Source: an uncultured Acidimicrobiaceae bacterium (GTDB lineage Bacteria > Actinomycetota > Acidimicrobiia > Spongiisociales > ZC4RG35). Taken from it: a stretch of DNA of 64,000 nt. The translations under genes and the position numbers were made by a program. The stretch spans positions 1,274 through 65,273 of the forward strand of contig CAZLEQ010000008.1 of assembly GCA_964558575.1 (NCBI GenBank), given 5' to 3'. Shown piece after piece: positions 1,769 to 43,465 of this stretch (its first letter is position 1; every line of letters begins with the position of its first letter). The notes under the pieces are model-generated. The model was not told the DNA's origin and did no database searches. It worked only from the letters and a program-made list of their open reading frames with translations.

Positions 1769-2533
1769 TCAGTCGGAGGCGTCGCGGGCCGCCTCCAGCT
1801 GCATGCGGAGCCCGGCGCCGATGAGGCCCAGGTCGACGGCCACCGAGGTCATGCGGAAGCCCTCCTCGACAGCCCGCGCTGAACGCTCTCCGCTGGCGGT
1901 GTGGAGACCGGGGACGATGCCGGCCGAGTCGGCCGCGGCTACCACTGCCTCAAACGCATCGGTCAGGGCGGAGGCGTTCGGGTGGGTGCCGTCGAAGACT
2001 TCCTCGACGTCGGGAGCCGGCTCTCCACCGAGACCCAGGCCCAGGTCGGCCGGGCCGATGTAGAGGGCGTCGACTCCGTCCACCGCGGCGATGGCGTCGA
2101 TGTTCTCTGCCGCTGCGGCCGTTTCCACCTGGATCACCACGTACGGATCCTCGTCAAAGGGGCCGACCCGTCTCGTCTGCATCCCGTATGACCTGCCCCC
2201 GCGCGGGGCGTGGCGGGTGGCGTGGACGGCACGCTTCGCATCTTCGACCGACTCCACCAGAGGCACCACGATCCCGGCTGCACCCAGGTCGAGGGCCCGA
2301 CCGATCCGACCCGGGTCGATCGACTCGACCCGCACCAGCCCGGGCACCCCGTAGTTGGCCATCACAGTGAACAGGGAGGTGTCCAGCCGGCCGAGGTCGA
2401 TGCCATGTTGGGTGTCGACCACGATGAAGTCGGGTCGCGCCGATGCCGCGCTGTCGACGACAAACTGATCACCCGTGACCGACCAGAAGCCATGGATGAT
2501 GTGCTGCGAACGGAGGGTTTCTGCGCCTGGCAT
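1769..2533 (-). CDS. HpcH/HpaI family aldolase / citrate-lyase-beta-like
   Basis: Motifs: FIVVDTQHG, LVRV, GIVVPLVES.EDA, VIQVET, DALYIGPADL. The start was trimmed to the internal ATG (MPGAETL) because the upstream Arg-rich extension overlaps the neighbouring gene. Confidence 0.85.
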   Translation of the reverse strand: MPGAETLRSQHIIHGFWSVTGDQFVVDSAASARPDFIVVDTQHGIDLGRLDTSLFTVMANYGVPGLVRVESIDPGRIGRALDLGAAGIVVPLVESVEDAKRAVHATRHAPRGGRSYGMQTRRVGPFDEDPYVVIQVETAAAAENIDAIAAVDGVDALYIGPADLGLGLGGEPAPDVEEVFDGTHPNASALTDAFEAVVAAADSAGIVPGLHTASGERSARAVEEGFRMTSVAVDLGLIGAGLRMQLEAARDASD

Positions 2534-2568
2534 GGTCTGCAACGTTAAGCCTGGCAGGATTCGGTTGC

Positions 2569-4395
2569 ATGACCACGCTGCGCTTCGGCATCTCCGATCT
2601 GCCGCCCGACGACGGCGACGACGCCGCCTTTCTCGACCGGCTCGTAGAGGAGGGTCATCGCGCCCTTGAGCTCCCATTCACCGAAGGGTTTCCCTGGAAG
2701 GAGAAGCGCTGTGAGACCTTCGGAGCACTCGCCGCCGAGCGCGACATCAGGCTCTCGGTCCACGCCCCCTACTTCGCCGGCCTCACCATCCTCGAAGAGG
2801 ACAAGGGGAGGCAGTCGGTCCATGCCATCGAGCACACCATGAAGCTGGGCCACCGGCTCGGGTCGCCGGTGATCGTCGCCCACTTCGGGTCGACCTATGA
2901 CGAGGCCCCGGTGGTGCTCATGGACCGGATCAGGTCGCGGATCGACCTCATCGCACCGAAGGTGGAGTCGCTCGGGGTGGGGCTCGGGCTCGAGACAGCC
3001 GGCAAGCGCAGCCAGTTCGGCAGTCTCGGGGACATCGCCCAACTGGCCGCGGAGTACAGCTTCGTCCGGCCGGTGGTCGATTGGGCTCACATCCACGCCA
3101 TGACCGGCGGTGGGCTCACCTCCAAGGAGGCGTTCATGTCGGTGCTGTCGTTCCTGAAGGAGAGCTTCCCCGGCTGGATGATCTCCCCCCTCCAGGTCCA
3201 ATTCTCCGACAACCAAATCGGAGACGCCGGCGAGATCAGACACGTCGCCTACGGCGAAGGAACGCTACGGGTCGGTCCGTTGGTGAAGGCGGTGCAGGAG
3301 ACGGATCTGTCGATGGTTCTCATCTCCGAGGCCCGGGACATGGAGAGCCACGCGCTGATCTGGGCCGAAGTCCAAGAGACGATGTCCGGTGTCGCGGTCA
3401 GGCGGGAGGGGCGCCCTCTCGCCTCGGCCGATGCCGGGTTTCCGTCTCCCGTCGAGGTCACCAGGGAGGGGGAGAGGTTCGTTCCCCAGGGTGTGGACCG
3501 GCCGATCACGTTCTCCAACATCGACAAGGTCTTCTTCCCCGACTCCGGGTACACGAAGGGCGACCTGATCCAGTATTACGTCTCGGTGGCGCCGCTCCTG
3601 CGCCCCCATCTCGCCGGCCGTCCCATCTCGATGGCGCGGTACCCCGACGGGATCACCGGACAGTCTTTCTACGAGAAGCGGGCGCCGGGTCATCAGCCCA
3701 AGTGGATGAGGACCTCGCCGGTCGTTTCCGACTCCCAGGGCGAGATCATAGACTTCCTCCTCGCCGACTCCGAGGAGGCGTTGATGTGGTTCGCCAACAT
3801 GGGTTGCATCGAGTTCCATCCGTTTCACTCGAAGGTGGAGGACCTCGACAAGCCGACCTACGCCATCTTCGACTTCGACCCCGCCGAGGGCTCCTCTTGG
3901 GACCAGGTGACCGCTGCGGCGCGGTTGCTCGAGGTGGCACTGGGACAGCTCGGCCTGGTGGGCTACCCCAAACTGTCCGGGGCGCGGGGACTCCACGTCT
4001 ATGTGCCCCTCGACCCGGTCCACCCACACTCGCGGGTGCGCCGGTTCGTCGGCGAGGTCGGCGAGTATCTCGCCGCGGCCAACCCCGACGACATCACCAT
4101 GGAGTGGGACAAGCCCAAGCGGAAGGGCAAGGTGTTCGTCGACCACAACCGAAACACTTTCGGCCAGACCGTGGCCTCGGTCTACTCGGTGCGACCCCGT
4201 CCGGGGGCCCCGGTGGCCGCTCCCCTCACCTGGGAAGAGGTGGGTTCGGTCGAGAACGGTGATTTCACCATCGTCGACATCTGGGATCGGGTCCAGCGCT
4301 ACGGGGACCTGTTCGCCCCGGTCCTGGATGGGGGCCAGACCCTGGACGCAGCCGAGGCGGCTCTCGGCATTGGCGGTGGATCCGCTTCCAAATGA
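2569..4395 (+). CDS. Fusion protein: endonuclease IV-like (AP endonuclease family 2 TIM barrel) N-domain plus LigD-type primase-polymerase (PolDom) C-domain
   Basis: The N-terminal ~270 aa carry the ordered Nfo-like motifs SVHAPY, VAHFG, GLETAG, VDWAHIHA, QFSDN, RHVAYGEGT, LISEAR. The C-terminal ~300 aa carry YAIFDFDP, LSGARGLHVYVPL, KVFVDHNRN, SVYSVRPR. It is a single uninterrupted 608-aa ORF. Confidence 0.85.
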   Translation: MTTLRFGISDLPPDDGDDAAFLDRLVEEGHRALELPFTEGFPWKEKRCETFGALAAERDIRLSVHAPYFAGLTILEEDKGRQSVHAIEHTMKLGHRLGSPVIVAHFGSTYDEAPVVLMDRIRSRIDLIAPKVESLGVGLGLETAGKRSQFGSLGDIAQLAAEYSFVRPVVDWAHIHAMTGGGLTSKEAFMSVLSFLKESFPGWMISPLQVQFSDNQIGDAGEIRHVAYGEGTLRVGPLVKAVQETDLSMVLISEARDMESHALIWAEVQETMSGVAVRREGRPLASADAGFPSPVEVTREGERFVPQGVDRPITFSNIDKVFFPDSGYTKGDLIQYYVSVAPLLRPHLAGRPISMARYPDGITGQSFYEKRAPGHQPKWMRTSPVVSDSQGEIIDFLLADSEEALMWFANMGCIEFHPFHSKVEDLDKPTYAIFDFDPAEGSSWDQVTAAARLLEVALGQLGLVGYPKLSGARGLHVYVPLDPVHPHSRVRRFVGEVGEYLAAANPDDITMEWDKPKRKGKVFVDHNRNTFGQTVASVYSVRPRPGAPVAAPLTWEEVGSVENGDFTIVDIWDRVQRYGDLFAPVLDGGQTLDAAEAALGIGGGSASK

Positions 4396-4401
4396 ATCCG
4401 C

Positions 4402-4517
4402 TTCCTAATGCTGTGGGGCCGGTATACCGGCCCTGGGGAGTGTAGAAACGCGGCGGCTTCGGACGTACCCATTCCGCGCCCCCGGGGGCCGGATATCCGG
4501 CCCTGGTGCATTAGGAA
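4402..4517. repeat. REPIN-like element: two inverted copies of a hairpin repeat (TTCCTAATGC-N4-GGGCCGGTATACCGGCCC), family 1
   Basis: The left arm is 4402-4433 and the right arm is 4484-4517 (gggccggatatccggccctggtgcattaggaa). The arms are reverse complements of each other. Each holds its own GC-rich palindrome with a central TATA/ATAT. Confidence 0.8.
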
Positions 4518-4584
4518 AACGAAGTGGGAAACGGGGAAACATGCGGTTTCTCCGGGGGTCGTGTCGGCTAGGTAAGGTTGGGGG

Positions 4585-5655
4585 ATGGACCTCTACGCCC
4601 GCGTGAACATACTCGATGGGCTGTCGGTCCGGCTCCCTCGTGGTGGACTGGACGACGCCATCGCGTTGGACAACGACCCGATCGGGCGTGCCAAGAACTG
4701 GGTCCAGCAGGGAGTCGACTATCTGCACATCGTCGACCTCGACGCCGCCGCCTACGGCGACTACCGCAATCGCGACCTCATCCGCAGACTCGTCGAGGAG
4801 GTGGAGACCCCGGTCCAGGTGGCCGGAGGGATTCGCTCCGAAGGTGAGGGGGAGAAGCTCTTGGAGAGTGGTGCGTGGCGCATCGTGATGGGAACCGCCG
4901 CGATCGAGAACCAGATCATGGTGTGGGAGATGTGTCGCGAGCATCCAGAGAAGATCGCCGTCTCCCTGGATATCCGTCCCAACGAGGAGGTCGCCACCCG
5001 CGGATGGACCCAAAACAGCGGCAGGTTCCTCGAAGAGGTGCTCATCGAGATGTCATCGGCCGGTGCAGTCGCCTTCTTGGTGGCCGAGGCGGGGCGAGAT
5101 GCCCTCTCCGATCCACCGAACTTGCAGATCCTCGCCGAGGCACTAGCCACTGTGGAGGAGCCGGTAATCGCGGCCGGAGGGGTCCGCGACCTCGAGGATC
5201 TGCGCAAGCTGATGATGCTCGAGACTTCCGGCCGCACTCTCGGTGGGGTGGTCGTCGGACGCGAGGTTACCGCGGGCCGCTTCACCGTCGAGGAGGCCAA
5301 GCAGGTCTTGGCCGGTGGTGGACCGACCCGCGCTCCCGGCGGGATCACCGTCACCAGGACTCCGGTGGCGGTCGAGTCCCTGGAGACATCATTGGGGTTC
5401 TATCGCGACGTGCTCGGCTTCAACCAGGTCCGCTCCCCCTCACAAGGGGTGATCACCGCCGTGGTCGAGGCCGCCCCGGGCCAGCACATAGAGTTGGTCG
5501 AAGGGGGGACGACTCGACCCGAGTCGCTGGTCTTCCGTGTCGAAGAGCCCGACCGTTGGCGGGACCATCTCTCCAACCTCGGTGTGGAGACCGAAGGCGA
5601 CGGCTCCCGTCTGGTGGTCGTCGATCCCGACGGACTCAAGATCGTTCTCGAGTAG
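4585..5655 (+). CDS. HisA/PriA-like (beta/alpha)8 barrel protein fused to a C-terminal VOC/glyoxalase domain
   Basis: HisA signatures present: HIVDLDAA, VQVAGGIRS, AVSLDIR, AAGGVRD, GVVVGRE. The N-terminal catalytic Asp (PAIDL in HisA) reads RVNIL here. The last ~110 aa (VESLETSLGFYRDVLGF...VVVDPDGLKIVLE) form a VOC module. Confidence 0.8.
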   Translation: MDLYARVNILDGLSVRLPRGGLDDAIALDNDPIGRAKNWVQQGVDYLHIVDLDAAAYGDYRNRDLIRRLVEEVETPVQVAGGIRSEGEGEKLLESGAWRIVMGTAAIENQIMVWEMCREHPEKIAVSLDIRPNEEVATRGWTQNSGRFLEEVLIEMSSAGAVAFLVAEAGRDALSDPPNLQILAEALATVEEPVIAAGGVRDLEDLRKLMMLETSGRTLGGVVVGREVTAGRFTVEEAKQVLAGGGPTRAPGGITVTRTPVAVESLETSLGFYRDVLGFNQVRSPSQGVITAVVEAAPGQHIELVEGGTTRPESLVFRVEEPDRWRDHLSNLGVETEGDGSRLVVVDPDGLKIVLE

Positions 5656-20457: not shown

Positions 20458-20510
20458 CCTTTGTGAAGGAAAAAGGCGCTGAGTGCGCCCGAAATCTTCA
20501 CAGAACGATT
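20458..20510. repeat. About 50-nt nested-hairpin repeat, family 2, copy B
   Basis: TGTGAAG-GAAAAA-GGCGC-TGAGT-GCGCC-CGAAAT-CTTCACA-GAACG. About 80 percent identical to the reverse complement of 11658-11709. Confidence 0.6.
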
Positions 20511-20530
20511 GTTGGTACGGTTTGGCGGCG

Positions 20531-21091
20531 ATGGACAGACCCGACCAACTCAATTTCACCGAAGACGAGACCGCCAACGAGCTACTCGCCAGCGACGGAC
20601 TCGCCCTCCTCATCGGGATGCTGCTCGACCAGCAGTTTCCCATGGAGCGCGCCTTCTACGGCCCCCAGCTCCTCAGGGAGCGTCTCGGGGAGGACCTCGA
20701 CGAAGCGCGAATCGCCGGTTGGGACCCCGAGGAGCTCGCTTCGATCTTCCAGGGCCCTCCCGCCATCCACCGTTATTGGTCGGCCATGGCCAAGCGCGCC
20801 CAAGCCCTCTGTCAGGCGCTAGTCGACGAATACGAGGGCAGGGCCGAGAACTTGTGGGAGACCGCGGACAGCGGTACGGAGCTGCTCAGGAGACTCAAGG
20901 GTCTCCCCGGGTTCGGCGAGGCCAAAGCCCGCATCTTCGTCGGCGTACTCGGCAAACGTCTCGGGGTGAGGCCGGAGGGATGGGGGGAAAAGGCAGCCGA
21001 TTGGCCCTCGGTTGCCGATGTGGCCACCTTCGACGACGTTGCCGTGCTCCGGGAGCAGAAGCGCGCCATGAAGGAAGCCAAAAAGGGCTGA
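20531..21091 (+). CDS. HhH-GPD-type base-excision DNA repair family protein
   Basis: LALLIGMLLDQQ.PME.AF.GP..L..RLG, LKGLPGFGE.KA.IF. The start was set at MDRPDQL, and the upstream part of the track ORF overlaps the repeat. Confidence 0.7.
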   Translation: MDRPDQLNFTEDETANELLASDGLALLIGMLLDQQFPMERAFYGPQLLRERLGEDLDEARIAGWDPEELASIFQGPPAIHRYWSAMAKRAQALCQALVDEYEGRAENLWETADSGTELLRRLKGLPGFGEAKARIFVGVLGKRLGVRPEGWGEKAADWPSVADVATFDDVAVLREQKRAMKEAKKG

Positions 21092-27132: not shown

Positions 27133-27321
27133 CTATGCGGCCCGACCGAAGGGCTGGGTGGGATCGGGCTGAGCCAGCTTCTCACCCAGATGGATGAGGC
27201 GGTTGCCGATCGCCTGTCTCAGGCCGAGACGGGGCTGCTCCAGCGGCTCTGGAGGATTGACGTGGCGGCGGGCGTACTCGTCGTGGTACCCACCGGCTCT
27301 GGTGTACAGGTCAGCGAACAT
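27133..27321 (-). CDS. Small hypothetical protein (62 aa from the internal ATG)
   Basis: The ORF overlaps the 3' end of the ArsR-type gene by 11 nt in an operon-like arrangement. No recognisable motif. The call rests only on position and non-repetitive composition. Confidence 0.3.
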   Translation of the reverse strand: MFADLYTRAGGYHDEYARRHVNPPEPLEQPRLGLRQAIGNRLIHLGEKLAQPDPTQPFGRAA

Positions 27322-28438
27322 CGCGTAACTCCTCACTTCCTGAATGCATGAGATATGAATCGAGGTATCCGGCGGCGTCGGTGAGCGTCTGCTCTCTCAG
27401 CGAGTAGGCCTTCTCGCGTGACGACTTCTCCTCGGGTATGTGGACCCTGATGAGGCCTGCCCCTCGGAGCAGGGTAATGTGGTGGTGGACGGTCGACTTG
27501 GTCAACCCGAGCATCTCGGCGAGGTCGTCTAGCGACGCCGGTCCTTCACTGAGGCGGCGGAGGATGCGGAGCCTCCTCTCGTCGCTGAGCGCCTTGTAGG
27601 TGCGCACCAGCCACGAAGGCGGAGCCTCCGGATCGCTGTCGATGAACTCGTCCGCGATGCCGTAGAAGACGACCAGGGTGCCCCGGTATCCGTCGATCAG
27701 TGAAAGGGGCCGGGTGAGCACCGAGGGGACCAGGACGACCCGGGTGGTGCCCACCGGGATCTCGAAGTCGATTCCGCTGGTGACCTCCTCGACGATCTCC
27801 TTGGCGCTGCCACGTGTCGGTGCGGCGCGGCGCGCGGCGGCGGCCCTGGCGATCGCACCGGCGAACTCTTCCTCGAAGTCGTCGAAGACTTCGCTCCGGA
27901 ACCGCTCCAGAGCGGCCCCGAACCGACCGGGGAGCCCCTCGGTGCTCACCATCCAGCGCAGGTATTCCACGACCTCCTCCTTCTCCTCGGCCATCTCTCC
28001 CATGACGGCGTCCACGGCCTCGGTGTCGCCCTGGGCGGCCTGTTCGATGAGGGCCTGGTCGTCGTTGTGGCTGCTGTAGGCGAGGATCCACCGTCGAAGT
28101 CGCTGCTCGCCAACCGTCTTCAGCCAGTCGAAGACCCGTTGCGGCTCGTGGGGGTGAGGTGCGGCCAGGAGGAGACCGGCCACGGCCAGCCAGACGTGGG
28201 CGTCGGGGCCACCGAGGGTTTCCAATTCAGACCCGAACTCGTCGCCGCAGGTGGCCCTGATGTTCTCGAGCCAGTTCTCACCTAGCTCCGTGGCGGTGTT
28301 CGGCTCCTTCGGGCTGAAGGCCGACCAGATGGTCAGGGGGATCTCGAAGGTGACCGTCCCCTCGATCTCGATGGGGATCCGGCGCGGGGCGGCGGTGAGG
28401 CCCCTCACCCGCTCACTGGGGATAATCAGTTCAGTCAT
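27311..28438 (-). CDS. ArsR-family winged-helix regulator with a long N-terminal uncharacterised domain (DUF5937-like)
   Basis: The C-terminus LSDERRLRILRRLSEGPASLDDLAEMLGLTKSTVHHHITLLRGAGLI is a classic ArsR HTH. About 270 aa with no recognisable motif precede it. Confidence 0.7.
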   Translation of the reverse strand: MTELIIPSERVRGLTAAPRRIPIEIEGTVTFEIPLTIWSAFSPKEPNTATELGENWLENIRATCGDEFGSELETLGGPDAHVWLAVAGLLLAAPHPHEPQRVFDWLKTVGEQRLRRWILAYSSHNDDQALIEQAAQGDTEAVDAVMGEMAEEKEEVVEYLRWMVSTEGLPGRFGAALERFRSEVFDDFEEEFAGAIARAAAARRAAPTRGSAKEIVEEVTSGIDFEIPVGTTRVVLVPSVLTRPLSLIDGYRGTLVVFYGIADEFIDSDPEAPPSWLVRTYKALSDERRLRILRRLSEGPASLDDLAEMLGLTKSTVHHHITLLRGAGLIRVHIPEEKSSREKAYSLREQTLTDAAGYLDSYLMHSGSEELRDVR

Positions 28439-28456
28439 TTCGCACACACACCTGAG

Positions 28457-28522
28457 ATTCGACAAATATCGAATGTGAGTATGTCATATCGATATTCGCC
28501 TGTCAACGGCAGTTTCGACAAA
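28457..28522. promoter_or_regulatory. AT-rich divergent promoter/operator region with palindromes and a direct repeat
   Basis: ATTCGA-caaata-TCGAAT at 28457-28474; ATATCGATAT at 28486-28495; TTCGACAAA repeated at 28458 and 28514. The region lies between the divergent ArsR-type gene and the Fe-S reductase gene. Confidence 0.4.
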
Positions 28523-34151: not shown

Positions 34152-34556
34152 ATGGCGCGGATCGATCAGGTGGCGGGTATCGGGCATCGAGAGGCAACCA
34201 AGCTGCGTAAGGCCGGGGTTCGTACCAGCAAGTCGCTCTCCGATTGTGCCGCGACTCGACGGGGCAGGACCGAGCTCTCGAAGAAGACCGGGCTCAGCCC
34301 CAAGGATCTCCAAGTGTGGGTCCACCACGCCGACCTGTTGCGGGTGCGTGGGGTCGGCTCAGAGTATGCCGTCCTGCTGGTGGAAGCGGGAGTGGATACC
34401 TTGCGCGATCTGAGACGACGCAACCCGACGGCACTGCTGGCCAAGATCATCGGCATGAACGGCTCCCAGAAGGTAGTGGAGCGTCTGCCCACCGAGGCGA
34501 TGGTGGAGGGCTGGATCGAGGCGGCGGGCGACCTGGATCCGTCGATCAAGAGCTGA
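34152..34556 (+). CDS. DUF4332 domain protein (tandem helix-hairpin-helix)
   Basis: I.GIG...A.KL..AGV.T and L.RV.GVG.EYA.LL..AGVDT..DL motifs; 134 aa. An AT-rich promoter-like stretch lies upstream (34095-34145). Confidence 0.7.
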   Translation: MARIDQVAGIGHREATKLRKAGVRTSKSLSDCAATRRGRTELSKKTGLSPKDLQVWVHHADLLRVRGVGSEYAVLLVEAGVDTLRDLRRRNPTALLAKIIGMNGSQKVVERLPTEAMVEGWIEAAGDLDPSIKS

Positions 34557-39169: not shown

Positions 39170-41752
39170 TCAGTCATAGAAGAGAGACTCGAACGTCCTT
39201 CGGGACCGTCGGGTGTACTTCCGGTACTGCTCGCGCAGTATCGCGGTGCGATCCAGGCCGAGCGAGGCGGCCAACCGGGCGGTCGCCCCGGGATCGGTGG
39301 GGAGGGAGTCCGACGGGCGACCACTCTGCAGATGGAGCCGGAGCCGTACTCTCGTGCAGAAGAGGTAGGCGTCGTGGAGAGCGTTGAAGTCGCCGCTGGT
39401 GAGGATGTCGGTGTCGCGCAGGGCGCGTAGCGCAGGAAACGTGCCGGGCATCCGGAGCTCGGGGATCCGTCCGCCATGTCTGAGCTGGAGCAGCTGGACG
39501 ACGAACTCGACGTCGCTGAGACCACCGGGACCAAGCTTGAGGTGGAAGTCGGGGTCCTCATGGGATGGTATCCGCTCGGACTCGACTCTCGCCTTGATCT
39601 CTCTCACGCCACGTGCGATCTCCGACGGCAGCTCTCTGCGCCACACCAGCGGGTCGATCAACTCGAAGTATTCGTGGAGTAGCTCGTCATCCCCCCCTGC
39701 CGGGCGTGCCTTGACCAGCGCCAGCAGCTCCCACGGCTCCACCCACTCTTGGTAGTAGCGACGGTAGGACTCGACCGATCGCGTGATCGGCCCTTTCCGT
39801 CCCTCCGGCCGCAGACCGGCGTCCAGCTCATAAGCGTCGCCGTGCCGGTTGGGACGAGAGAGGATCATCTCGAGGGAGGCGGCGATCTGGGCACCCTGAT
39901 CGGGCCGGCCGTCGCCGTGGATGTAGATGAGGTCGATGTCCGAGCCATAGGACAACTCACGGCCTCCCCATTTTCCCATCGCCACGACGGCGAACCGGGT
40001 GTCGGGCGGGTCGATCATGTGCAGGGCGCCGACCAAGGCGGCGTCGGCGCTGTCGGATAGAGCCAGCAGGGTCGACTCGGGAGGGGCAGCCCCGAGAATG
40101 TCATGGGCCGCGATCCGCAGCTTGCGCCGCCGGACGAATCGGCGGATCGTTCCGATCTTGGACTCCTCGTCGGGACGAGAGTCGAGCAGTCCCAGCAGGC
40201 GCTCGGTGGCGTCCTCTCGATCGCGGATCGTCCCCAGAGCGTAGTCGTCGGCCAATCTCGGGATGAACTCGGGTATCCGGTCGATGAGATCGCCGACCAG
40301 CTTTCCGGTGCCGAGCAAGGTGCAGAGGCGCTCACCGGCCACCGGGTTGTTCTGGAGCAGGGTGATGAGAGCGCCATGGTCGCGGGTGTGTGCCATCAGG
40401 AGTCGCAGTTGAGCGAGCCCGAGATCAGGGTCGGGCGACTGGGAGAGCCAGTCGAGCATCAGGGGGAGCACTTGCTGCATCACCCGGGAGCGCCGGCTCA
40501 AGCCAGCGGTCAGGTCGCTGACCGCCTCGGTGGCCGCCACCACATCGCGGAACCCGAGCGCCTCCAGCCTGATCGCCGCCGCCGCCGGGTCGAGCCGGGC
40601 GTCTTTCAGCCCCACCAGGGATTCGAGAATCGGGCGGAAATAGAGGCGCTCGTGGAGATCGCGGGCGGTCTCGCGAACCTCTGCCAGGCGTCGGTCGAAC
40701 TCGGCGGCCGGGTTCTGGCTGAAACCGAGAGCCCGTCCCAGCCAGTCGCGGTCCTCCTCGGTGGTGGGGAGGATGTGGGTCTGTTTGAGCTCGCGCAGCT
40801 GCAGCCGATGCTCGACGTCTCTGAGGAACCGGTAGGCGTCGGCGAGTCGTTCCGCCTCGGTCTCCTCGACATAACCGTGATACATGAGCGCTTCGATGGC
40901 ACCGAGAGTCGAAGTCACCCGGAGGTCGGCGTCGAACCGCCCGTGCACCAGCTGGAGCAGTTGCACTGCGAACTCGATGTCCCTGATGCCGCCACGCGAT
41001 CGCTTGACATCTCCCGCGCCCGCCCCTTCCTCTGTCTGGGCCTTGATCGCCCGGATGCTGCGGAGCGCGTCGACGTCGAGGCCTTCGTCCCAGATGATGC
41101 GATCGCACATCTCTCTGAAACGACGGCCCAGATCGGGATCACCGGCGGCGGGCCGCGCCTTGAGCAATGCCTGCAGCTCCCATGCCTCGCTCCACCGGGA
41201 GTAGTACCCGGAATAGCCGTCGAGGCTGCGGGAGAGCGGTCCCATGGTTCCTTCCGGCCGGAGGTCGGCGTCGACGTTGAGAGTGGGTCCGTCGAAGGTC
41301 GGGGCCGACATGGTCGAGATCAGGCGGCTGGCTATGCCCAGTGCAGCTGCCCGACTCTCGGCGTCCCGACCTGCTCGTGGCTCGTGCACGAACACGAGGT
41401 CGATGTCGGAGTAGTAGTTCAGCTCCCGAGCTCCCCACTTACCCATGGCGATCACTGCGAACCCGATCTCCCGGGAGATGGGATGGCGCTCGGCGACATG
41501 GTCGATCGCAGCCTCCAGTTCGGCTGCCACCAGGAGGTCGATCTCGTCGGAGAGGCGGGCCGTGGTCTCTTCGAGGGTCGCCTTCCCGGTGACGTCGTCG
41601 ATAGCGGCATCGATCAGGAGCGATTGGAGCTTGACGCTGATCGTGTCCTCGGCACGCGGAGGGTCCGCCAGATGTGGGCGCTGCAGCAGGGCATCGGCGA
41701 GGGGTGGGCTCACCAGACGCAGCGTGGCGGCGAGTTGCTCGAGGTCGTTCAC
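39170..41752 (-). CDS. glnE: Bifunctional glutamine synthetase adenylyltransferase/adenylyl-removing enzyme GlnE
   Basis: Two nucleotidyltransferase modules are present (GKWGARELNYYSDIDLVFVHE and GKWGGRELSYGSDIDLIYIH), each followed by a GlnE helical domain. The start was set at GTG 41752, because the 257 upstream codons of the track ORF are antisense to nadE. The start is uncertain. Confidence 0.8.
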   Translation of the reverse strand: MNDLEQLAATLRLVSPPLADALLQRPHLADPPRAEDTISVKLQSLLIDAAIDDVTGKATLEETTARLSDEIDLLVAAELEAAIDHVAERHPISREIGFAVIAMGKWGARELNYYSDIDLVFVHEPRAGRDAESRAAALGIASRLISTMSAPTFDGPTLNVDADLRPEGTMGPLSRSLDGYSGYYSRWSEAWELQALLKARPAAGDPDLGRRFREMCDRIIWDEGLDVDALRSIRAIKAQTEEGAGAGDVKRSRGGIRDIEFAVQLLQLVHGRFDADLRVTSTLGAIEALMYHGYVEETEAERLADAYRFLRDVEHRLQLRELKQTHILPTTEEDRDWLGRALGFSQNPAAEFDRRLAEVRETARDLHERLYFRPILESLVGLKDARLDPAAAAIRLEALGFRDVVAATEAVSDLTAGLSRRSRVMQQVLPLMLDWLSQSPDPDLGLAQLRLLMAHTRDHGALITLLQNNPVAGERLCTLLGTGKLVGDLIDRIPEFIPRLADDYALGTIRDREDATERLLGLLDSRPDEESKIGTIRRFVRRRKLRIAAHDILGAAPPESTLLALSDSADAALVGALHMIDPPDTRFAVVAMGKWGGRELSYGSDIDLIYIHGDGRPDQGAQIAASLEMILSRPNRHGDAYELDAGLRPEGRKGPITRSVESYRRYYQEWVEPWELLALVKARPAGGDDELLHEYFELIDPLVWRRELPSEIARGVREIKARVESERIPSHEDPDFHLKLGPGGLSDVEFVVQLLQLRHGGRIPELRMPGTFPALRALRDTDILTSGDFNALHDAYLFCTRVRLRLHLQSGRPSDSLPTDPGATARLAASLGLDRTAILREQYRKYTRRSRRTFESLFYD

Positions 41753-41806
41753 GGATGTCAGGCTATGACGTCGGACTTCGAAGAGCCACGGCGTATCGTG
41801 ACTGGC

Positions 41807-43465
41807 ATGGCCCTGAGGGTTGCCGGAGCGCAACTGAACCTGACCGTCGGCGATGTTCCCGGCAACGAGGAGAAGATCGCGGCTGCCATGAAGCGCGCCG
41901 AGGAGGCAGGGGCCGACATCCTCCTGGTCCCAGAGCTCGCCATCACCGGATACCCACCCGAAGATCTGGTGTTGCGTCGAGACTTCGTCGAAGCCAACAT
42001 CGAGGCTCTCCATCGTCTCGCCCGCGGGTCGGGGAGTACGACGACGGTGCTGGGCTTCGTCGACTTCGCCACGGGCAAGGGCCAGGGCGCAGAGGACGCC
42101 GAGCCTCGCTCGGTGGCCAACGGAGCCGCGGTCATATCCCACGGCGAGCTGCGTGGTGTGTACCACAAGGTGCTTCTCCCCAACTACGGGGTGTTCGACG
42201 AGGATCGCTATTTCATCGAGGGGGCCGATCCGGGTCGGGTCTGGGAGATCGAAGGGGTGACGATGGGAGTCTCCGTTTGTGAGGACATCTGGCGCCCCGA
42301 TGGCCCCCCCGCCCGGCAGGCCGCCAACGGCGCCCGGGTACTCCTCAACATCAACGCTTCCCCCTTCCATCGAGGGAAAGCCGAGGAGAGAGAGGCGATG
42401 CTCGCGGCCAGAGCGCGGTCCGGCACCGCCTCGGTGGTCTATCTCAACCTGGTGGGGGGTCAGGACGAGTTGGTCTTCGACGGAGCCTCGGCGGTGATCG
42501 CCCCCGACGGCCGGTTGCTCCACCGTTCACCACAGTTCGAGGAGGACTTCTTCATCGTCGACGTCCCGGTCGGAGACGAGGAGACCGCCGCAGGAGGCGT
42601 CGCCTCGTTGCTGGAGCCGACCGAGGAGATCTATCGGGCCTTGACCACTGGTCTGCGCGACTACTGCCGCAAGAACGGCTTCGCGGGGGTGGTGGTCCAA
42701 CTCTCCGGAGGCATCGATTCCGCGGTCTCAGCCACCATCGCCGCCGATGCATTGGGCCCGGATTCGGTCTGGGGAGTCGGCATGCCGACCAGGTTCTCGT
42801 CGCAGCATTCGGTCGACGATGCCCGCGTCCTGGCAGAGAACCTGGGGATCCGCTTCGACGTCGTCCCCATCGACGGTGTCTATGAGTCTCATCTCGATGC
42901 TCTCTCCGGGATCTTCGAGGGGACCGAGTTCGGCGTGGCCGAGGAGAACCTACAAGCGCGCGCCCGTGGCACAGTGGCGATGGCCATCTCGAACAAGTTC
43001 GGGCCGATGGTGCTCGCCACCGGGAACAAGTCGGAGATGGCGGTGGGATACGCCACTCTCTACGGCGACATGGTCGGCGGATATTCGGTGCTCAAGGACG
43101 TGCTCAAGGGGGTCGTCTACGAGTTGGCGCGGTGGCGGAACAAGGACGGCGAGGTCATACCGCAGAACAGCATCGACAAACCACCATCGGCCGAGCTACG
43201 CCCCAACCAGAAGGACTCCGATTCACTCCCCCCATATGACGTGCTCGACCCGATACTGGAGCGATACATCGAAAACGACATGGGAGTGGCCGAGATCGTC
43301 GCCGAGGGCTACGACGCCGAGACGGTCCTGGAGGTGGCCCACCTCGTCGACCGCAACGAGTACAAGCGGCGCCAGTCCGCACCGGGGGTGAAGATCACCA
43401 CCAAGGCGTTCGGGAAGGACCGTCGGTTGCCGATCACCAACCGCTATCGCCCGAGCATCCCGTGA
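41807..43465 (+). CDS. nadE: Glutamine-dependent NAD+ synthetase NadE (nitrilase-like domain plus synthetase domain)
   Basis: The CN-hydrolase N-domain has LLVPELAITGYPPEDL and VSVCEDIW. The C-domain has the SGGIDSAV P-loop and NKSE.AVGY.TLYGD. The start was set at ATG 41807, because the upstream 568 codons are antisense to glnE. Confidence 0.85.
   Translation: MALRVAGAQLNLTVGDVPGNEEKIAAAMKRAEEAGADILLVPELAITGYPPEDLVLRRDFVEANIEALHRLARGSGSTTTVLGFVDFATGKGQGAEDAEPRSVANGAAVISHGELRGVYHKVLLPNYGVFDEDRYFIEGADPGRVWEIEGVTMGVSVCEDIWRPDGPPARQAANGARVLLNINASPFHRGKAEEREAMLAARARSGTASVVYLNLVGGQDELVFDGASAVIAPDGRLLHRSPQFEEDFFIVDVPVGDEETAAGGVASLLEPTEEIYRALTTGLRDYCRKNGFAGVVVQLSGGIDSAVSATIAADALGPDSVWGVGMPTRFSSQHSVDDARVLAENLGIRFDVVPIDGVYESHLDALSGIFEGTEFGVAEENLQARARGTVAMAISNKFGPMVLATGNKSEMAVGYATLYGDMVGGYSVLKDVLKGVVYELARWRNKDGEVIPQNSIDKPPSAELRPNQKDSDSLPPYDVLDPILERYIENDMGVAEIVAEGYDAETVLEVAHLVDRNEYKRRQSAPGVKITTKAFGKDRRLPITNRYRPSIP

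What the first reader, a model, noticed from the sequence alone, without database searches (positions are those of the whole stretch)
2569..4395. Endonuclease IV-like domain fused in one ORF to a LigD-type primase-polymerase domain
A single 608-aa ORF joins two complete repair enzymes. Residues ~1-270 carry the ordered endonuclease IV / AP-endonuclease-family-2 metal-ligand pattern SVHAPY, VAHFG, GLETAG, VDWAHIHA, QFSDN, RHVAYGEGT, LISEAR. The corresponding motifs in E. coli Nfo are HDSY, FHPG, ENTAG, DTCHAF, HLND, RHHSLGEGN, ILET. Residues ~300-600 are a LigD polymerase domain with the catalytic FDFDP, SGARGLHVYVPL, KVFVDHNRN and SVYSVRPR. Canonical bacterial LigD couples PolDom to a 3'-phosphoesterase and an ATP ligase and works with Ku. 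Here a different 3'-end-cleaning/AP-incising enzyme is attached, and no ku, ligase or phosphoesterase gene is in the window. One polypeptide could therefore incise an abasic site or remove a 3' block and then fill the gap, much like the short-patch role proposed for mycobacterial Prim-PolC. I cannot judge from the sequence alone how rare this architecture is.
Basis: partly seen in the sequence, partly recalled or inferred. Interest (0 to 1): 0.7.

Follow-up and report, generated by a model that had tools for sequence, protein, structure and literature searches.

The report
Endonuclease IV–primase-polymerase fusion repair enzyme
One conserved gene in uncultured Acidimicrobiia bacteria joins an archaeal-type endonuclease IV (a DNA-end cleaner) to a LigD-type gap-filling polymerase, which looks like a single-protein clean-and-fill DNA repair enzyme that databases wrongly label a DNA ligase.

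Summary
Window 2569-4395 (+) is one uninterrupted 608-aa ORF with an N-terminal AP_endonuc_2 TIM barrel (res 23-268) and a complete C-terminal LigD Prim-Pol domain (res 329-582).

The fusion is not an assembly artefact. All 120 listed hits (90%-identity clusters) carry it. So do 78 of the 80 best GTDB species loci, almost all Acidimicrobiia; the other two are cut by contig ends. A distant Actinomycetota lineage carries the same two domains in reverse order.

The N-domain is not a bacterial Nfo orthologue. It belongs to the archaeal-type EndoIV family, whose Thermococcales members (PfuAPE, TeuendoIV) are proven AP endonucleases and 3'-exonucleases. Eight of nine metal-ligand positions are invariant. 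Two functionally probed positions differ in this clade: the site-2 His is an invariant Gln (Q211), and the complementary-strand Asn is Gly or Val.

The Pol domain keeps its catalytic Asp triad and 5'-phosphate pocket but lacks Loop 3, which defines Prim-PolC.

No ku, ligase or phosphoesterase gene was found in the window.

Most likely function: cleaning of 3' ends or AP incision, then short-gap filling, with a separate ligase to seal. This is a new domain-architecture variant of known repair modules. I found no paper describing it. Interest is moderate.

The parts
2569..4395 (+). Whole fusion gene, 608 aa plus stop codon
   Evidence: ORF list. Single frame with GC3 0.80-0.95 throughout. Full-length homologues at 76-90% identity in all 120 listed hits and in 78 of 80 GTDB species loci.
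2569..3378 (+). N-terminal archaeal-type endonuclease IV-like TIM barrel (res 1-270). Predicted metal ligands are H65, H105, E142, D171, H174, Q211 (His in the wider family), E222, H225 and E254. Y68 and R224 correspond to the DNA-contacting Teu Y73 and R231.
   Evidence: Pfam PF01261, E 3.4e-25. Family profile against PDB: MJ1311 9.4e-21, Nfo structures 2.7e-18 to 1.7e-12. BLASTP against the P. abyssi EndoIV orthologue: E 1e-35, end to end. In the AF2 model, the best TM-score for this domain among the matches listed is T. maritima Nfo, TMt 0.79. Ligand invariance.
3199..3201 (+). Codon for Q211, a clade-specific Gln at the site-2 His ligand position (Nfo H216 / Teu H218)
   Evidence: Gln in 71 of 71 sequences (the query plus 70 GTDB-species fusions) and in 120 of 120 close homologues. 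His in 55 of 59 members of the wider family.
3379..3498 (+). Variable interdomain linker (res 271-310). AF2 places a short beta-hairpin at res 296-306.
   Evidence: Mean identity to the query is 38%, against 68% for the N-domain and 75% for the Pol domain. The stretch from E254 to N317 varies only between 60 and 66 residues. pLDDT dips at res 276-279.
3499..4323 (+). LigD-type primase-polymerase (AEP) domain (res 311-585). Catalytic residues are D435, D437 and D525. The 5'-phosphate pocket is N317, K320, F322, K330. The template wedge is F/Y, and R/P align to PolC R63/P65.
   Evidence: PF21686 1-254 of 254, E 1.6e-87. TIGR02778 above its cut-off. PDB 5dmu 1.4e-55 and Prim-PolC 5op0/6sa0 about 1e-52. 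Foldseek TMt 0.88 to 5dmu. Pocket residues mapped from PMC7442782 onto the alignment. Invariance.
4324..4392 (+). Short C-terminal tail (23 aa), too short to contain a Prim-PolC-type Loop 3
   Evidence: The alignment to 6sa0 ends at chain residue 291 of 350, which is query residue 585. Loop 3 is Prim-PolC residues 313-333. pLDDT is below 50 at res 604-608.
4585..5655 (+). Conserved downstream neighbour, a HisA-like TIM barrel plus VOC/glyoxalase domain protein. It is context only and not shown to be functionally linked.
   Evidence: PF00977 1.3e-48 plus PF00903. Present next to the fusion gene in 51 related loci and in L001.

Best explanation
The gene encodes a bifunctional DNA-repair enzyme for single-strand lesions.

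Step 1. The N-terminal archaeal-type endonuclease IV domain is a metal-dependent phosphodiesterase. It would produce a clean 3'-OH in one of two ways. It could remove 3'-blocking groups (3'-phosphate, 3'-unsaturated aldehyde, 3'-phosphoglycolate, 3'-terminal abasic residues) left by glycosylase/lyases or by oxidative breaks. Or it could incise 5' of an abasic site.

Step 2. The C-terminal LigD-type primase-polymerase is tethered by a flexible linker of about 40 residues. It would dock on the 5'-phosphate of the downstream strand through its conserved pocket and fill the 1-to-few-nucleotide gap. By analogy with its relatives it probably uses rNTPs or dNTPs.

Step 3. A separate ligase (NAD+ LigA or a LigC-like ATP-dependent ligase) seals the nick.

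What is shown: domain identities, integrity of the catalytic residues, conservation of the fusion, and family membership. What is inferred: both enzymatic activities, their coupling, and the identity of the ligase.

The clade-specific His-to-Gln change at metal site 2 and the loss of the complementary-strand Asn suggest two things. The EndoIV domain may be tuned to a different metal. It may also act on 3' termini at nicks and gaps, with the Pol domain supplying DNA docking, rather than on internal AP sites in intact duplex. This last point is speculation.
For: - Both domains are complete and under purifying selection across at least 70 species. Mean identity to the query is 68% for the N-domain and 75% for Pol, against 38% for the linker. 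All eight remaining metal ligands, the Asp triad and three of the four 5'-phosphate-pocket residues (N317, K320, K330) are invariant; the fourth, F322, varies conservatively (F/Y/L).
- The N-domain aligns end to end with Thermococcales EndoIV (E 1e-35). That orthologous group contains PF0258 (PfuAPE): the cloning-primer-encoded termini MFKIDRL... and ...EELKI* and the mutated residues H70, H110 and E261 all match. It also contains TeuendoIV, whose residue numbering H70, Y73, N76, H110, R231, H232 matches P0500. Both enzymes are experimentally shown AP endonucleases and 3'-exonucleases. Removal of 3' blocks by TeuendoIV was shown to allow a polymerase to extend.
- In the AF2 model (pLDDT 87), the N-domain's best TM-score among the matches listed is to Nfo (TMt 0.74-0.79), above the sugar epimerases (about 0.62).
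- The Pol domain matches NHEJ/BER Prim-Pols (E 1e-55, TMt 0.80-0.88) and has a conserved 5'-phosphate pocket.
- The same two domains are fused in the opposite order in another Actinomycetota lineage (P0130). That is a second fusion or rearrangement event and argues for functional coupling.
- In mycobacteria, EndoIV was the best 3'-processing nuclease for Prim-PolC/LigC gap repair in vitro and co-purified with LigC (PMC5663958).
- One fusion-bearing genome also carries a separate canonical PE-ligase-Pol set 2.4 kb away (L010). So the fusion is an additional paralogue, not simply the NHEJ polymerase.
Against: - No biochemistry exists for any fusion protein.
- The site-2 His ligand is Gln in every member of this clade.
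- The Asn whose mutation (N76A) abolished the dsDNA activity of TeuendoIV is Gly or Val here. Classical dsDNA AP-endonuclease activity may therefore be weakened or altered.
- Loop 3, which makes Prim-PolC a dedicated short-gap enzyme, is absent.
- No glycosylase, ligase or other repair gene is a conserved neighbour. The only conserved neighbour is a HisA-like/VOC gene.
- AP incision by EndoIV leaves a 5'-dRP. The polymerase pocket is built for a 5'-phosphate, and no dRP lyase has been identified.
- Whether these genomes encode Ku could not be tested.
Confidence: 0.55

Rival explanations
1. It is an NHEJ end-processing polymerase. The EndoIV domain would replace the LigD 3'-phosphoesterase domain as the 3'-end cleaner at double-strand breaks. 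The protein would work with Ku and a stand-alone ATP-dependent ligase encoded elsewhere in the genome.
For: The Pol domain is of the LigD/NHEJ type, and its best PDB match is the Methanocella NHEJ polymerase. It lacks Loop 3, so it resembles Prim-PolD more than Prim-PolC in that respect. ATP-dependent ligases of the LigD/LigC type occur within 10 kb of the fusion gene in 2 of 80 loci (L010 and L085). Split LigD systems are known (PMC5663958).
Against: In L010 a canonical stand-alone PE + ligase + Pol set sits beside the fusion gene, so the NHEJ roles already seem filled. Ligase linkage is absent in 78 of 80 loci, and no Ku was found in the window. EndoIV enzymes are classically BER and single-strand-break enzymes.
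Confidence: 0.2
2. The EndoIV-like domain has lost or changed its nuclease chemistry. It would serve mainly as a lesion- or DNA-end-recognition and tethering module for the polymerase, taking over the upstream-duplex-holding role that Loop 3 plays in Prim-PolC. Alternatively it would be a phosphodiesterase of narrowed specificity.
For: Q211 invariably replaces the site-2 His. Position 209 is also often Gln. The complementary-strand Asn is lost. Loop 3 is absent from the Pol domain. [quoted passage not shown]
Against: All eight other ligand positions and the R224/H225 pair are strictly conserved over species 56-87% identical in the N-domain, which is not expected for a dead active site. Gln can still coordinate a metal through its amide oxygen. 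More distant fusions (P0124, P0130) keep the His.
Confidence: 0.17
3. The N-domain acts on a non-DNA substrate, as a sugar isomerase/epimerase or a CbiR-like small-molecule phosphodiesterase. The fusion with the polymerase would then have no connection to DNA-end chemistry.
For: Pfam places it only in the broad xylose-isomerase-like TIM barrel family. The CbiR model hits 44 of 59 family members and a few epimerase models hit weakly. Foldseek also lists epimerases.
Against: The nfo models hit 58 of 59 members, with the best E-values. The TM-score to Nfo is 0.74-0.79, against about 0.62 for epimerases. The family contains biochemically proven DNA AP endonucleases. The DNA-contacting Tyr and Arg are conserved. 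Fusion to a DNA polymerase in two different orders argues for a DNA substrate.
Confidence: 0.05
4. It is an artefact: two adjacent genes joined by an assembly or sequencing frameshift, or by a missed stop codon in the linker.
For: One reversed-order homologue is called as two overlapping genes (L086).
Against: The codon-position GC signal is continuous in one frame. The same fusion is assembled independently in all 120 listed hits and in 78 of 80 GTDB species loci from many studies. The E254-N317 stretch, which spans the linker, is tightly conserved in length at 60-66 residues. The L086 break lies inside the Pol domain, so there the split form is the likely error.
Confidence: 0.01

Closest known systems
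Mycobacterial LigC / Prim-PolC / EndoIV excision-repair complex (Plocinski et al. 2017, PMC5663958; Brissett et al. 2020, PMC7442782)
   Same: A LigD-type primase-polymerase with a 5'-phosphate pocket fills short gaps after an endonuclease IV has cleaned the 3' end. The pocket, wedge and catalytic residues are conserved here.
   Different: In mycobacteria the partners are separate proteins bridged by LigC. Here EndoIV and Pol are covalently fused and no ligase is linked. The EndoIV is of the archaeal type, not the bacterial Nfo type. The Pol lacks Loop 3, which defines Prim-PolC. There is no operon with LigC or FPG.
Bacterial Ligase D (PE-Pol-Lig multidomain NHEJ enzyme) and split LigD systems
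   Same: The same Pol domain family (TIGR02778 above its cut-off). The same logic of attaching a 3'-end-cleaning phosphoesterase to the polymerase.
   Different: The ORF has no ligase domain and no PE domain. The end-cleaner has an unrelated fold (a TIM-barrel EndoIV). No Ku linkage was seen. The database names 'non-homologous end-joining DNA ligase' and 'bifunctional NHEJ protein LigD' are misnomers for this protein.
Archaeal-type endonuclease IV (P. furiosus PfuAPE/PF0258, PMC2770678; T. eurythermalis TeuendoIV, PMC6341776)
   Same: The alignment is end to end and collinear (27% identity, E 1e-35). The equivalents of H70, H110, Y73, R231, H232 and E261 are conserved, as are D178, H181 and E229.
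   Different: The archaeal enzymes are stand-alone proteins of about 280 aa. Here the equivalent of Teu H218 is Gln and the equivalent of Teu N76 is Gly or Val. The domain is fused to a polymerase.
Bacterial family-X polymerases with a PHP domain (for example B. subtilis PolX). This comparison rests on my own knowledge of Banos et al. 2010; related papers are PMC2665239 and PMC9226535.
   Same: It is a functional analogue. One polypeptide combines an AP-endonuclease/3'-exonuclease metal-dependent phosphoesterase with a gap-filling polymerase.
   Different: Both domain folds are unrelated to those here (PolX + PHP versus AEP + TIM barrel). This is convergent architecture, not homology.
Bacterial/eukaryotic Nfo/Apn1 endonuclease IV (PDB 1qtw, 4hno, 8axy)
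   Same: A TIM-barrel fold (TMt 0.74-0.79) and the same order of metal-ligand motifs.
   Different: The sequence scores far below the nfo family cut-off. The motif is E-x-x-H instead of D-x-H. Gln replaces the H216 equivalent. The archaeal family was modelled as lacking R-loop 2.

Membership tests
LigD-type primase-polymerase (AEP; PF21686 / TIGR02778) | Full-length match to the family model above the curated cut-off | tested here: met
   PF21686 positions 1-254 of 254, 293.7 bits against a cut-off of 27.4. TIGR02778 243.8 bits against 214.7.
LigD-type primase-polymerase (AEP; PF21686 / TIGR02778) | Catalytic Asp triad (DxD plus a third Asp) and the SGxRGxH and SxYSxR motifs | tested here: met
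   D435, D437 and D525 align to the catalytic motifs of 5dmu, 5op0 and 6sa0. They are invariant in 71 of 71 fusion sequences.
LigD-type primase-polymerase (AEP; PF21686 / TIGR02778) | 5'-phosphate-binding pocket (Prim-PolC N20, K23, Y25, K35, P65) | tested here: met
   N317, K320, F322 (a Tyr-to-Phe change), K330 and the Pro of RyPDG align to these positions. N, K and K are invariant.
LigD-type primase-polymerase (AEP; PF21686 / TIGR02778) | Fold | tested here: met
   AF2 model against 5dmu TMt 0.88, Mtb PolDom 0.84-0.87, Prim-PolC 0.80.
Prim-PolC subfamily (short-gap BER Prim-Pol) | C-terminal Loop 3 (residues 313-333, with the P320/N321 pin) | tested here: not met
   The alignment to 6sa0 stops at chain residue 291. 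Only 23 residues follow in the query, and the last ones are low-complexity with low pLDDT.
Prim-PolC subfamily (short-gap BER Prim-Pol) | Operonic association with LigC (and FPG in some species) | tested here: not met
   No ligase homologue in the window. A ligase lies within 10 kb in only 2 of 80 related loci, and not in an operon with the fusion gene.
Ligase D (the 'non-homologous end-joining DNA ligase' of the database annotations) | ATP-dependent ligase domain in the protein | tested here: not met
   Pfam and NCBIfam find only the TIM barrel and Pol domains. The LigD full-length models match only over their Pol segment and fall far below their cut-offs.
Ligase D (the 'non-homologous end-joining DNA ligase' of the database annotations) | 3'-phosphoesterase (PE) domain | tested here: not met
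   No PE match in the protein. tblastn with the L010 PE gene finds nothing in the window.
Ku-dependent NHEJ system | A ku gene linked to the polymerase or ligase genes, or present in the genome | tested here: inconclusive
   No Ku Pfam hit among the 30 window ORFs scanned, and no conserved neighbour of that kind.
Bacterial endonuclease IV (Nfo; TIGR00587) | Score above the family's curated cut-off | tested here: not met
   35.9-38.3 bits against a cut-off of 129.65.
Bacterial endonuclease IV (Nfo; TIGR00587) | Nine metal-ligand residues of the trinuclear site | tested here: not met
   Eight positions are conserved: H65, H105, E142, D171, H174, E222 (Glu shifted by one position relative to the Asp), H225 and E254. 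The H216 equivalent is Q211. The correspondence to E. coli numbering rests partly on an Nfo sequence recalled from memory and on the tool alignment to Nfo structure 8axy.
Bacterial endonuclease IV (Nfo; TIGR00587) | TIM-barrel fold superimposable on Nfo | tested here: met
   TMt 0.79 (4hno) and 0.74-0.77 (E. coli Nfo), higher than to epimerases.
Archaeal-type endonuclease IV (PfuAPE / TeuendoIV family) | Significant end-to-end sequence similarity to characterised members | tested here: met
   phmmer hit to the Thermococcales representative P0157, E 9.1e-25. BLASTP against the P. abyssi orthologue: E 1e-35, residues 4-269 against 7-280. The orthologous group is tied to PF0258 and TeuendoIV.
Archaeal-type endonuclease IV (PfuAPE / TeuendoIV family) | Residues shown by mutagenesis to matter: H70, H110, E261 (Pfu) and H70, H110, Y73, N76, R231, H232 (Teu) | tested here: inconclusive
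   H65, H105, E254, Y68, R224 and H225 are conserved. The N76 equivalent (position 71) is G/V/I/T/A/S and never Asn in the fusion clade.
Archaeal-type endonuclease IV (PfuAPE / TeuendoIV family) | AP-endonuclease and 3'-exonuclease/diesterase activity | not testable with these tools
   Requires enzyme assays.

The most novel reading that the evidence does not exclude
The fusion defines a previously unrecognised, self-contained short-patch repair route in Acidimicrobiia and some other Actinomycetota. In it the EndoIV domain has been re-engineered (site-2 His to Gln, loss of the complementary-strand Asn) into a nick- or gap-specific 3'-end phosphodiesterase. That domain would depend on the polymerase's 5'-phosphate anchor for DNA docking, and in turn it would substitute for Prim-PolC's Loop 3 by holding the upstream duplex. 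The two domains would then form one composite active machine rather than two beads on a string. The pathway would be Ku-independent and distinct from the canonical PE-Lig-Pol set that can coexist in the same genome.
Probability: 0.2. Interest if true: 0.7.

Novelty: new variant of a known kind. Interest (0 to 1): 0.55.

Why it matters
- **Independent support for a disputed link.** Gene fusions are among the strongest genomic indicators that two activities work on the same substrate. Here the fusion occurs in two different domain orders. That supports the idea that LigD-like primase-polymerases outside NHEJ work hand in hand with endonuclease IV in excision or single-strand-break repair. Until now that idea rested on mycobacterial interaction and reconstitution data.
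- **A tractable model.** A single polypeptide could be used to study substrate hand-off between 3'-end cleaning and gap filling.
- **A natural active-site variant.** The His-to-Gln change at a metal site of the EndoIV active site may shed light on metal selectivity.
- **An annotation error.** Hundreds of database entries are named 'non-homologous end-joining DNA ligase' or 'LigD' although the protein has no ligase domain. This can distort surveys of NHEJ distribution in uncultured Actinomycetota.

Tried and rejected
- **Single-sequence PDB search with the N-domain.** It gave only a marginal hit to a 'xylose isomerase domain protein' and no Nfo. A family profile was needed.
- **Neighbourhood analysis of 80 loci.** I looked for a conserved ligase, Ku or glycosylase partner and found none. 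Only housekeeping synteny appeared (HisA-like/VOC gene, aldehyde dehydrogenase, PlsY, LPG synthase, peroxiredoxin).
- **Contexts of stand-alone close relatives.** P0123 and P0406 were checked for an adjacent Prim-Pol gene. None was found.
- **The split form in L086.** I considered it as evidence for an ancestral two-gene operon and rejected that, because the break lies inside the Pol domain. A frameshift is more likely.
- **Proximity of the reversed fusion to RNase HII.** I treated this as coincidental synteny within a ribosomal/trmD cluster.
- **Promoter and terminator scan of 2300-4800.** It was uninformative: no promoter-like site, and no terminator-like site between the fusion gene and the downstream gene.
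- **Literature searches.** Searches for the fusion, and for NHEJ in Acidimicrobiia, returned no paper describing this architecture. The library does not cover most subscription journals, so absence is not proof.
- **Whole-genome co-occurrence of Ku or LigC.** This could not be tested because only one genome-contig scan is allowed.
- **Interdomain geometry.** It could not be assessed. No PAE or coordinates were available, and pTM was 0.58.


Full report
**1. The observation**

Window 2569-4395 (+) is a single 608-aa ORF.

Pfam finds a xylose-isomerase-like TIM barrel (AP_endonuc_2, res 23-268, E 3.4e-25). It also finds a complete LigD primase-polymerase domain (res 329-582, model positions 1-254 of 254, E 1.6e-87). 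NCBIfam's ligD_pol model is passed (243.8 bits against 214.7). The nfo model is hit only weakly (35.9 bits against a cut-off of 129.65).

Third-codon-position GC is 0.80-0.95 in one frame from start to stop, including the linker.

**2. The fusion is real and conserved**

A search of 5.8 billion proteins returned 120 listed hits (90%-identity clusters) at 76-90% identity. All are about 600-607 aa and all have the same two Pfam domains. The named ones are Acidimicrobiia MAG proteins labelled 'non-homologous end-joining DNA ligase' or 'bifunctional NHEJ protein LigD'.

A scan of one genome per GTDB species found 412 loci that encode a relative of the N-domain. The best 80 (56-87% identity) are almost all Acidimicrobiia or Actinomycetota MAGs. 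In 78 of them the Pol domain follows in the same reading frame. The other two are cut by a contig end.

Across 70 full-length species representatives, mean identity to the query is 68% for the N-domain, 75% for the Pol domain and 38% for the linker. The stretch from E254 to N317, which spans the linker, stays within 60-66 residues. An assembly artefact is excluded.

**3. Identity of the N-terminal domain**

An exhaustive phmmer search with residues 1-300 found only 689 relatives among 1.84 billion cluster representatives. Most are stand-alone proteins of about 270-290 aa. Sources name them 'TIM barrel protein' or 'deoxyribonuclease IV'. They come from archaea (Thermoplasmata, Methanolobus, Thermococcus) and from several bacterial phyla.

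A 59-sequence family alignment has the invariant residues H65, H105, E142, D171, H174, E222, H225 and E254. Position 211 is His in at least 90% of members.

The family profile hits these solved structures:
- MJ1311 at 9.4e-21
- a series of endonuclease IV structures at 2.7e-18 to 1.7e-12, including E. coli 1qtw
- UV damage endonuclease at 3e-6
- sugar epimerases much more weakly

The nfo models hit 58 of 59 family members, always below the curated cut-off.

An AlphaFold2 model of the whole protein has mean pLDDT 87.1 and pTM 0.58. Among the matches listed, its N-domain superimposes best on T. maritima and E. coli Nfo (TMt 0.74-0.79), better than on epimerases (about 0.62).

The decisive link is to characterised enzymes. 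The family member P0157 was hit directly by the query at E 9.1e-25. It belongs to the Thermococcales 'endonuclease IV' orthologous group. Two lines tie that group to published biochemistry:
- The P. abyssi orthologue starts MFKIDRL... and ends ...EELKI, exactly as encoded by the primers used to clone PF0258. It has H70, H110 and E261 at the positions mutated in that study.
- The T. eurythermalis protein matches the residue numbering of TeuendoIV: H70, Y73, N76, H110, R231 and H232.

PF0258 (PfuAPE) and TeuendoIV are experimentally shown AP endonucleases with 3'-exonuclease activity. Removal of 3'-blocking groups by TeuendoIV was shown to license extension by a polymerase.

The query N-domain aligns end to end with the P. 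abyssi enzyme (27% identity, E 1e-35), and all ligand motifs are collinear. The domain is therefore best described as an archaeal-type endonuclease IV, not a bacterial Nfo orthologue.

**4.

- Position 211 corresponds to Nfo H216 / Teu H218, a ligand of metal site 2 in Nfo (my knowledge of Hosfield et al. 1999). It is Gln in all 120 close homologues and in 71 of 71 species-level fusion sequences. It is His in 55 of 59 members of the wider family, including the more distant fusions P0124 and P0130.
- Position 71 corresponds to Teu N76. The N76A mutant of TeuendoIV lost dsDNA activity. This position is G/V/I/T/A/S and never Asn in the fusion clade, against Asn in 46 of 59 family members.

Everything else that has been probed by mutagenesis is conserved. 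The active site looks alive but modified. A change of metal preference or of substrate (3' termini at nicks and gaps rather than internal AP sites in duplex) is plausible. TeuendoIV itself is stimulated by Mg2+ and inhibited by Zn2+.

**5. Identity of the C-terminal domain**

The best PDB sequence matches are as follows:
- Methanocella NHEJ polymerase 5dmu, 1.4e-55
- M. smegmatis Prim-PolC 5op0/6sa0, about 1e-52
- M. tuberculosis LigD PolDom, 4e-44

Structural matches agree, with TMt 0.88, 0.80 and 0.84-0.87 respectively.

The catalytic Asp residues (D435, D437, D525) are invariant. So are N317, K320 and K330, three of the residues that align to the Prim-PolC 5'-phosphate pocket (N20, K23, Y25, K35). 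The fourth, F322, aligns to Y25 and varies conservatively (F/Y/L). The F/Y wedge and R77 are also matched.

Loop 3 (Prim-PolC residues 313-333) was described as defining the short-gap subfamily. It cannot be present here. The alignment ends at Prim-PolC residue 291, and only 23 poorly ordered residues follow in the query.

The domain is thus a bona fide LigD-type Prim-Pol but not a member of the Prim-PolC subfamily. The protein has no ligase or phosphoesterase domain, so the database names are wrong.

**6. Independent evidence for functional coupling**

One 50%-identity cluster representative, P0130, carries the same two domains in the opposite order (Prim-Pol 30-281, TIM barrel 347-581). It comes from Actinomycetota MAGs (accession MEW6189520.1 and others) and sits in an unrelated genomic context.

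A third, more distant fusion in the same order as the query (P0124) retains the His at position 211.

The TIM domains of all the fusions are closer to each other (37-45%) than to the Thermococcales EndoIV enzyme (26-31%). Stand-alone proteins (P0123, P0134) fall inside this subclade.

The reversed order needs at least one additional fusion or rearrangement event. Recurrent fusion of the same pair is a classic sign of a shared pathway.

**7. Genomic context**

The only conserved neighbour is the downstream HisA-like/VOC gene, found in 51 loci. Housekeeping genes follow. No ligase, Ku, glycosylase or nuclease is conserved nearby.

One relative, L010, carries a canonical split LigD set 2.4 kb upstream of its fusion gene: PE 196 aa, ATP-dependent ligase 335 aa, stand-alone Pol 330 aa. 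I identified these three genes by eye, from motifs such as KxDGxR and the PE HYDFRLE signature, and the Pol gene also by tblastn. A second relative, L085, has an ATP-dependent ligase 4.6 kb away on the other strand.

I used the L010 proteins as probes. tblastn then found no PE or ligase in the 64-kb window. Pfam scans of 30 window ORFs found no Ku.

So the fusion can coexist with a complete NHEJ-type set. That suggests it is a specialised paralogue rather than the NHEJ polymerase. It also shows that LigC/LigD-like ligases exist in this class as possible sealing partners.

**8. Mechanism proposed**

The proposed sequence is this. The EndoIV domain generates a 3'-OH, either by 3'-diesterase, phosphatase or exonuclease action or by AP incision. 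The Pol domain anchors on the downstream 5'-phosphate and fills the gap. A separate ligase seals the nick.

This mirrors the in-vitro pathway FPG, EndoIV, Prim-PolC, LigC. In that work EndoIV was the best 3'-processing nuclease because it limits resection.

The domain identities, intact catalytic residues, purifying selection and recurrent fusion are shown. The activities, their coupling, the nucleotide preference and the ligase are inferred.

The main rivals are:
- a Ku-dependent NHEJ role, with EndoIV replacing PE
- an EndoIV domain that is catalytically altered and mainly targets or tethers the polymerase

Neither can be excluded without genome-wide Ku data and enzyme assays.

**9. Novelty**

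None of the full-text searches found a description of this architecture. A survey of bacterial NHEJ domain architectures considered only LIG, POL and PE.

The concept of one polypeptide that both incises or cleans and fills is known from PolX-PHP enzymes (my own knowledge), and all the parts here belong to known families.

I therefore rate this a new variant of a known kind. It is a lineage-wide, mis-annotated domain architecture with a modified EndoIV active site. It is of moderate interest to DNA-repair specialists and is directly testable.

Noticed in passing
window 4585-5655 (+): A 356-aa protein combines a HisA/HisF-like TIM barrel (PF00977, 1.3e-48) with a C-terminal VOC/glyoxalase domain. 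It is the only strongly conserved neighbour of the fusion gene (51 related loci), 190 nt downstream on the same strand. Its function and any link to the fusion gene are unknown.
   Followed up: partly
L010 5107-7600 (Actinomycetota MAG JBKHKD010000021.1): A canonical split LigD set lies 2.4 kb upstream of this genome's EndoIV-Pol fusion gene: a 3'-phosphoesterase (196 aa), an ATP-dependent ligase (335 aa, motif KLDGER) and a stand-alone Pol (330 aa, 35% identical to the fusion's Pol). The two systems therefore coexist. This linkage was seen in only 1 of 80 loci.
   Followed up: partly
L085 4402-5379 (-) (Acidimicrobiia KatS3mg011, BPGJ01000001.1): An ATP-dependent DNA ligase (325 aa, 46% identical to the L010 ligase) lies 4.6 kb upstream of the fusion gene on the opposite strand. 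Three unrelated genes separate them.
   Followed up: partly
L003 10001-11803, and L086 5237-7038: A reversed-order fusion (Prim-Pol then EndoIV-like, 600 aa) occurs in low-GC Actinomycetota MAGs, between an rpsP-trmD-rplS-RNase HII cluster and comM/dprA. In L086 the same gene is called as two overlapping ORFs (255 + 345 aa). The break lies inside the Pol domain, so it is probably a frameshift or a pseudogene.
   Followed up: partly
window 20483-21091 (+): A 202-aa ORF has a sub-threshold HhH-GPD (base-excision glycosylase superfamily) Pfam match, 24.6 bits against a cut-off of 26.2. It lies 16 kb from the fusion gene, and no linkage is apparent.
   Followed up: no
window 27311-28465 (-): A 384-aa protein has a C-terminal ArsR-type HTH. 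Its N-terminal part gives a Pfam CRISPR_Cse1 hit just above the cut-off (26.7 bits against 24.7). This is odd for a protein of this size, and no CRISPR context was looked for.
   Followed up: no
window 39170-42523 (-) and 40103-43465 (+): Two ORFs of more than 1100 aa overlap on opposite strands, and both have high third-position GC. By eye, the C-terminal half of the + ORF looks like a glutamine-dependent NAD synthetase. Its N-terminal about 550 aa may be a spurious extension antisense to a real gene.
   Followed up: no
window 34152-34556 (+): A small DUF4332 / helix-hairpin-helix (HHH_5) protein, presumably DNA-binding. Its function is unknown.
   Followed up: no
L087 3330-3839: In the distant same-order fusion P0124, a DinB_2 (DinB/YfiT-like) gene follows the fusion gene by 13 nt. 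The contig is short and the taxon is unknown.
   Followed up: no
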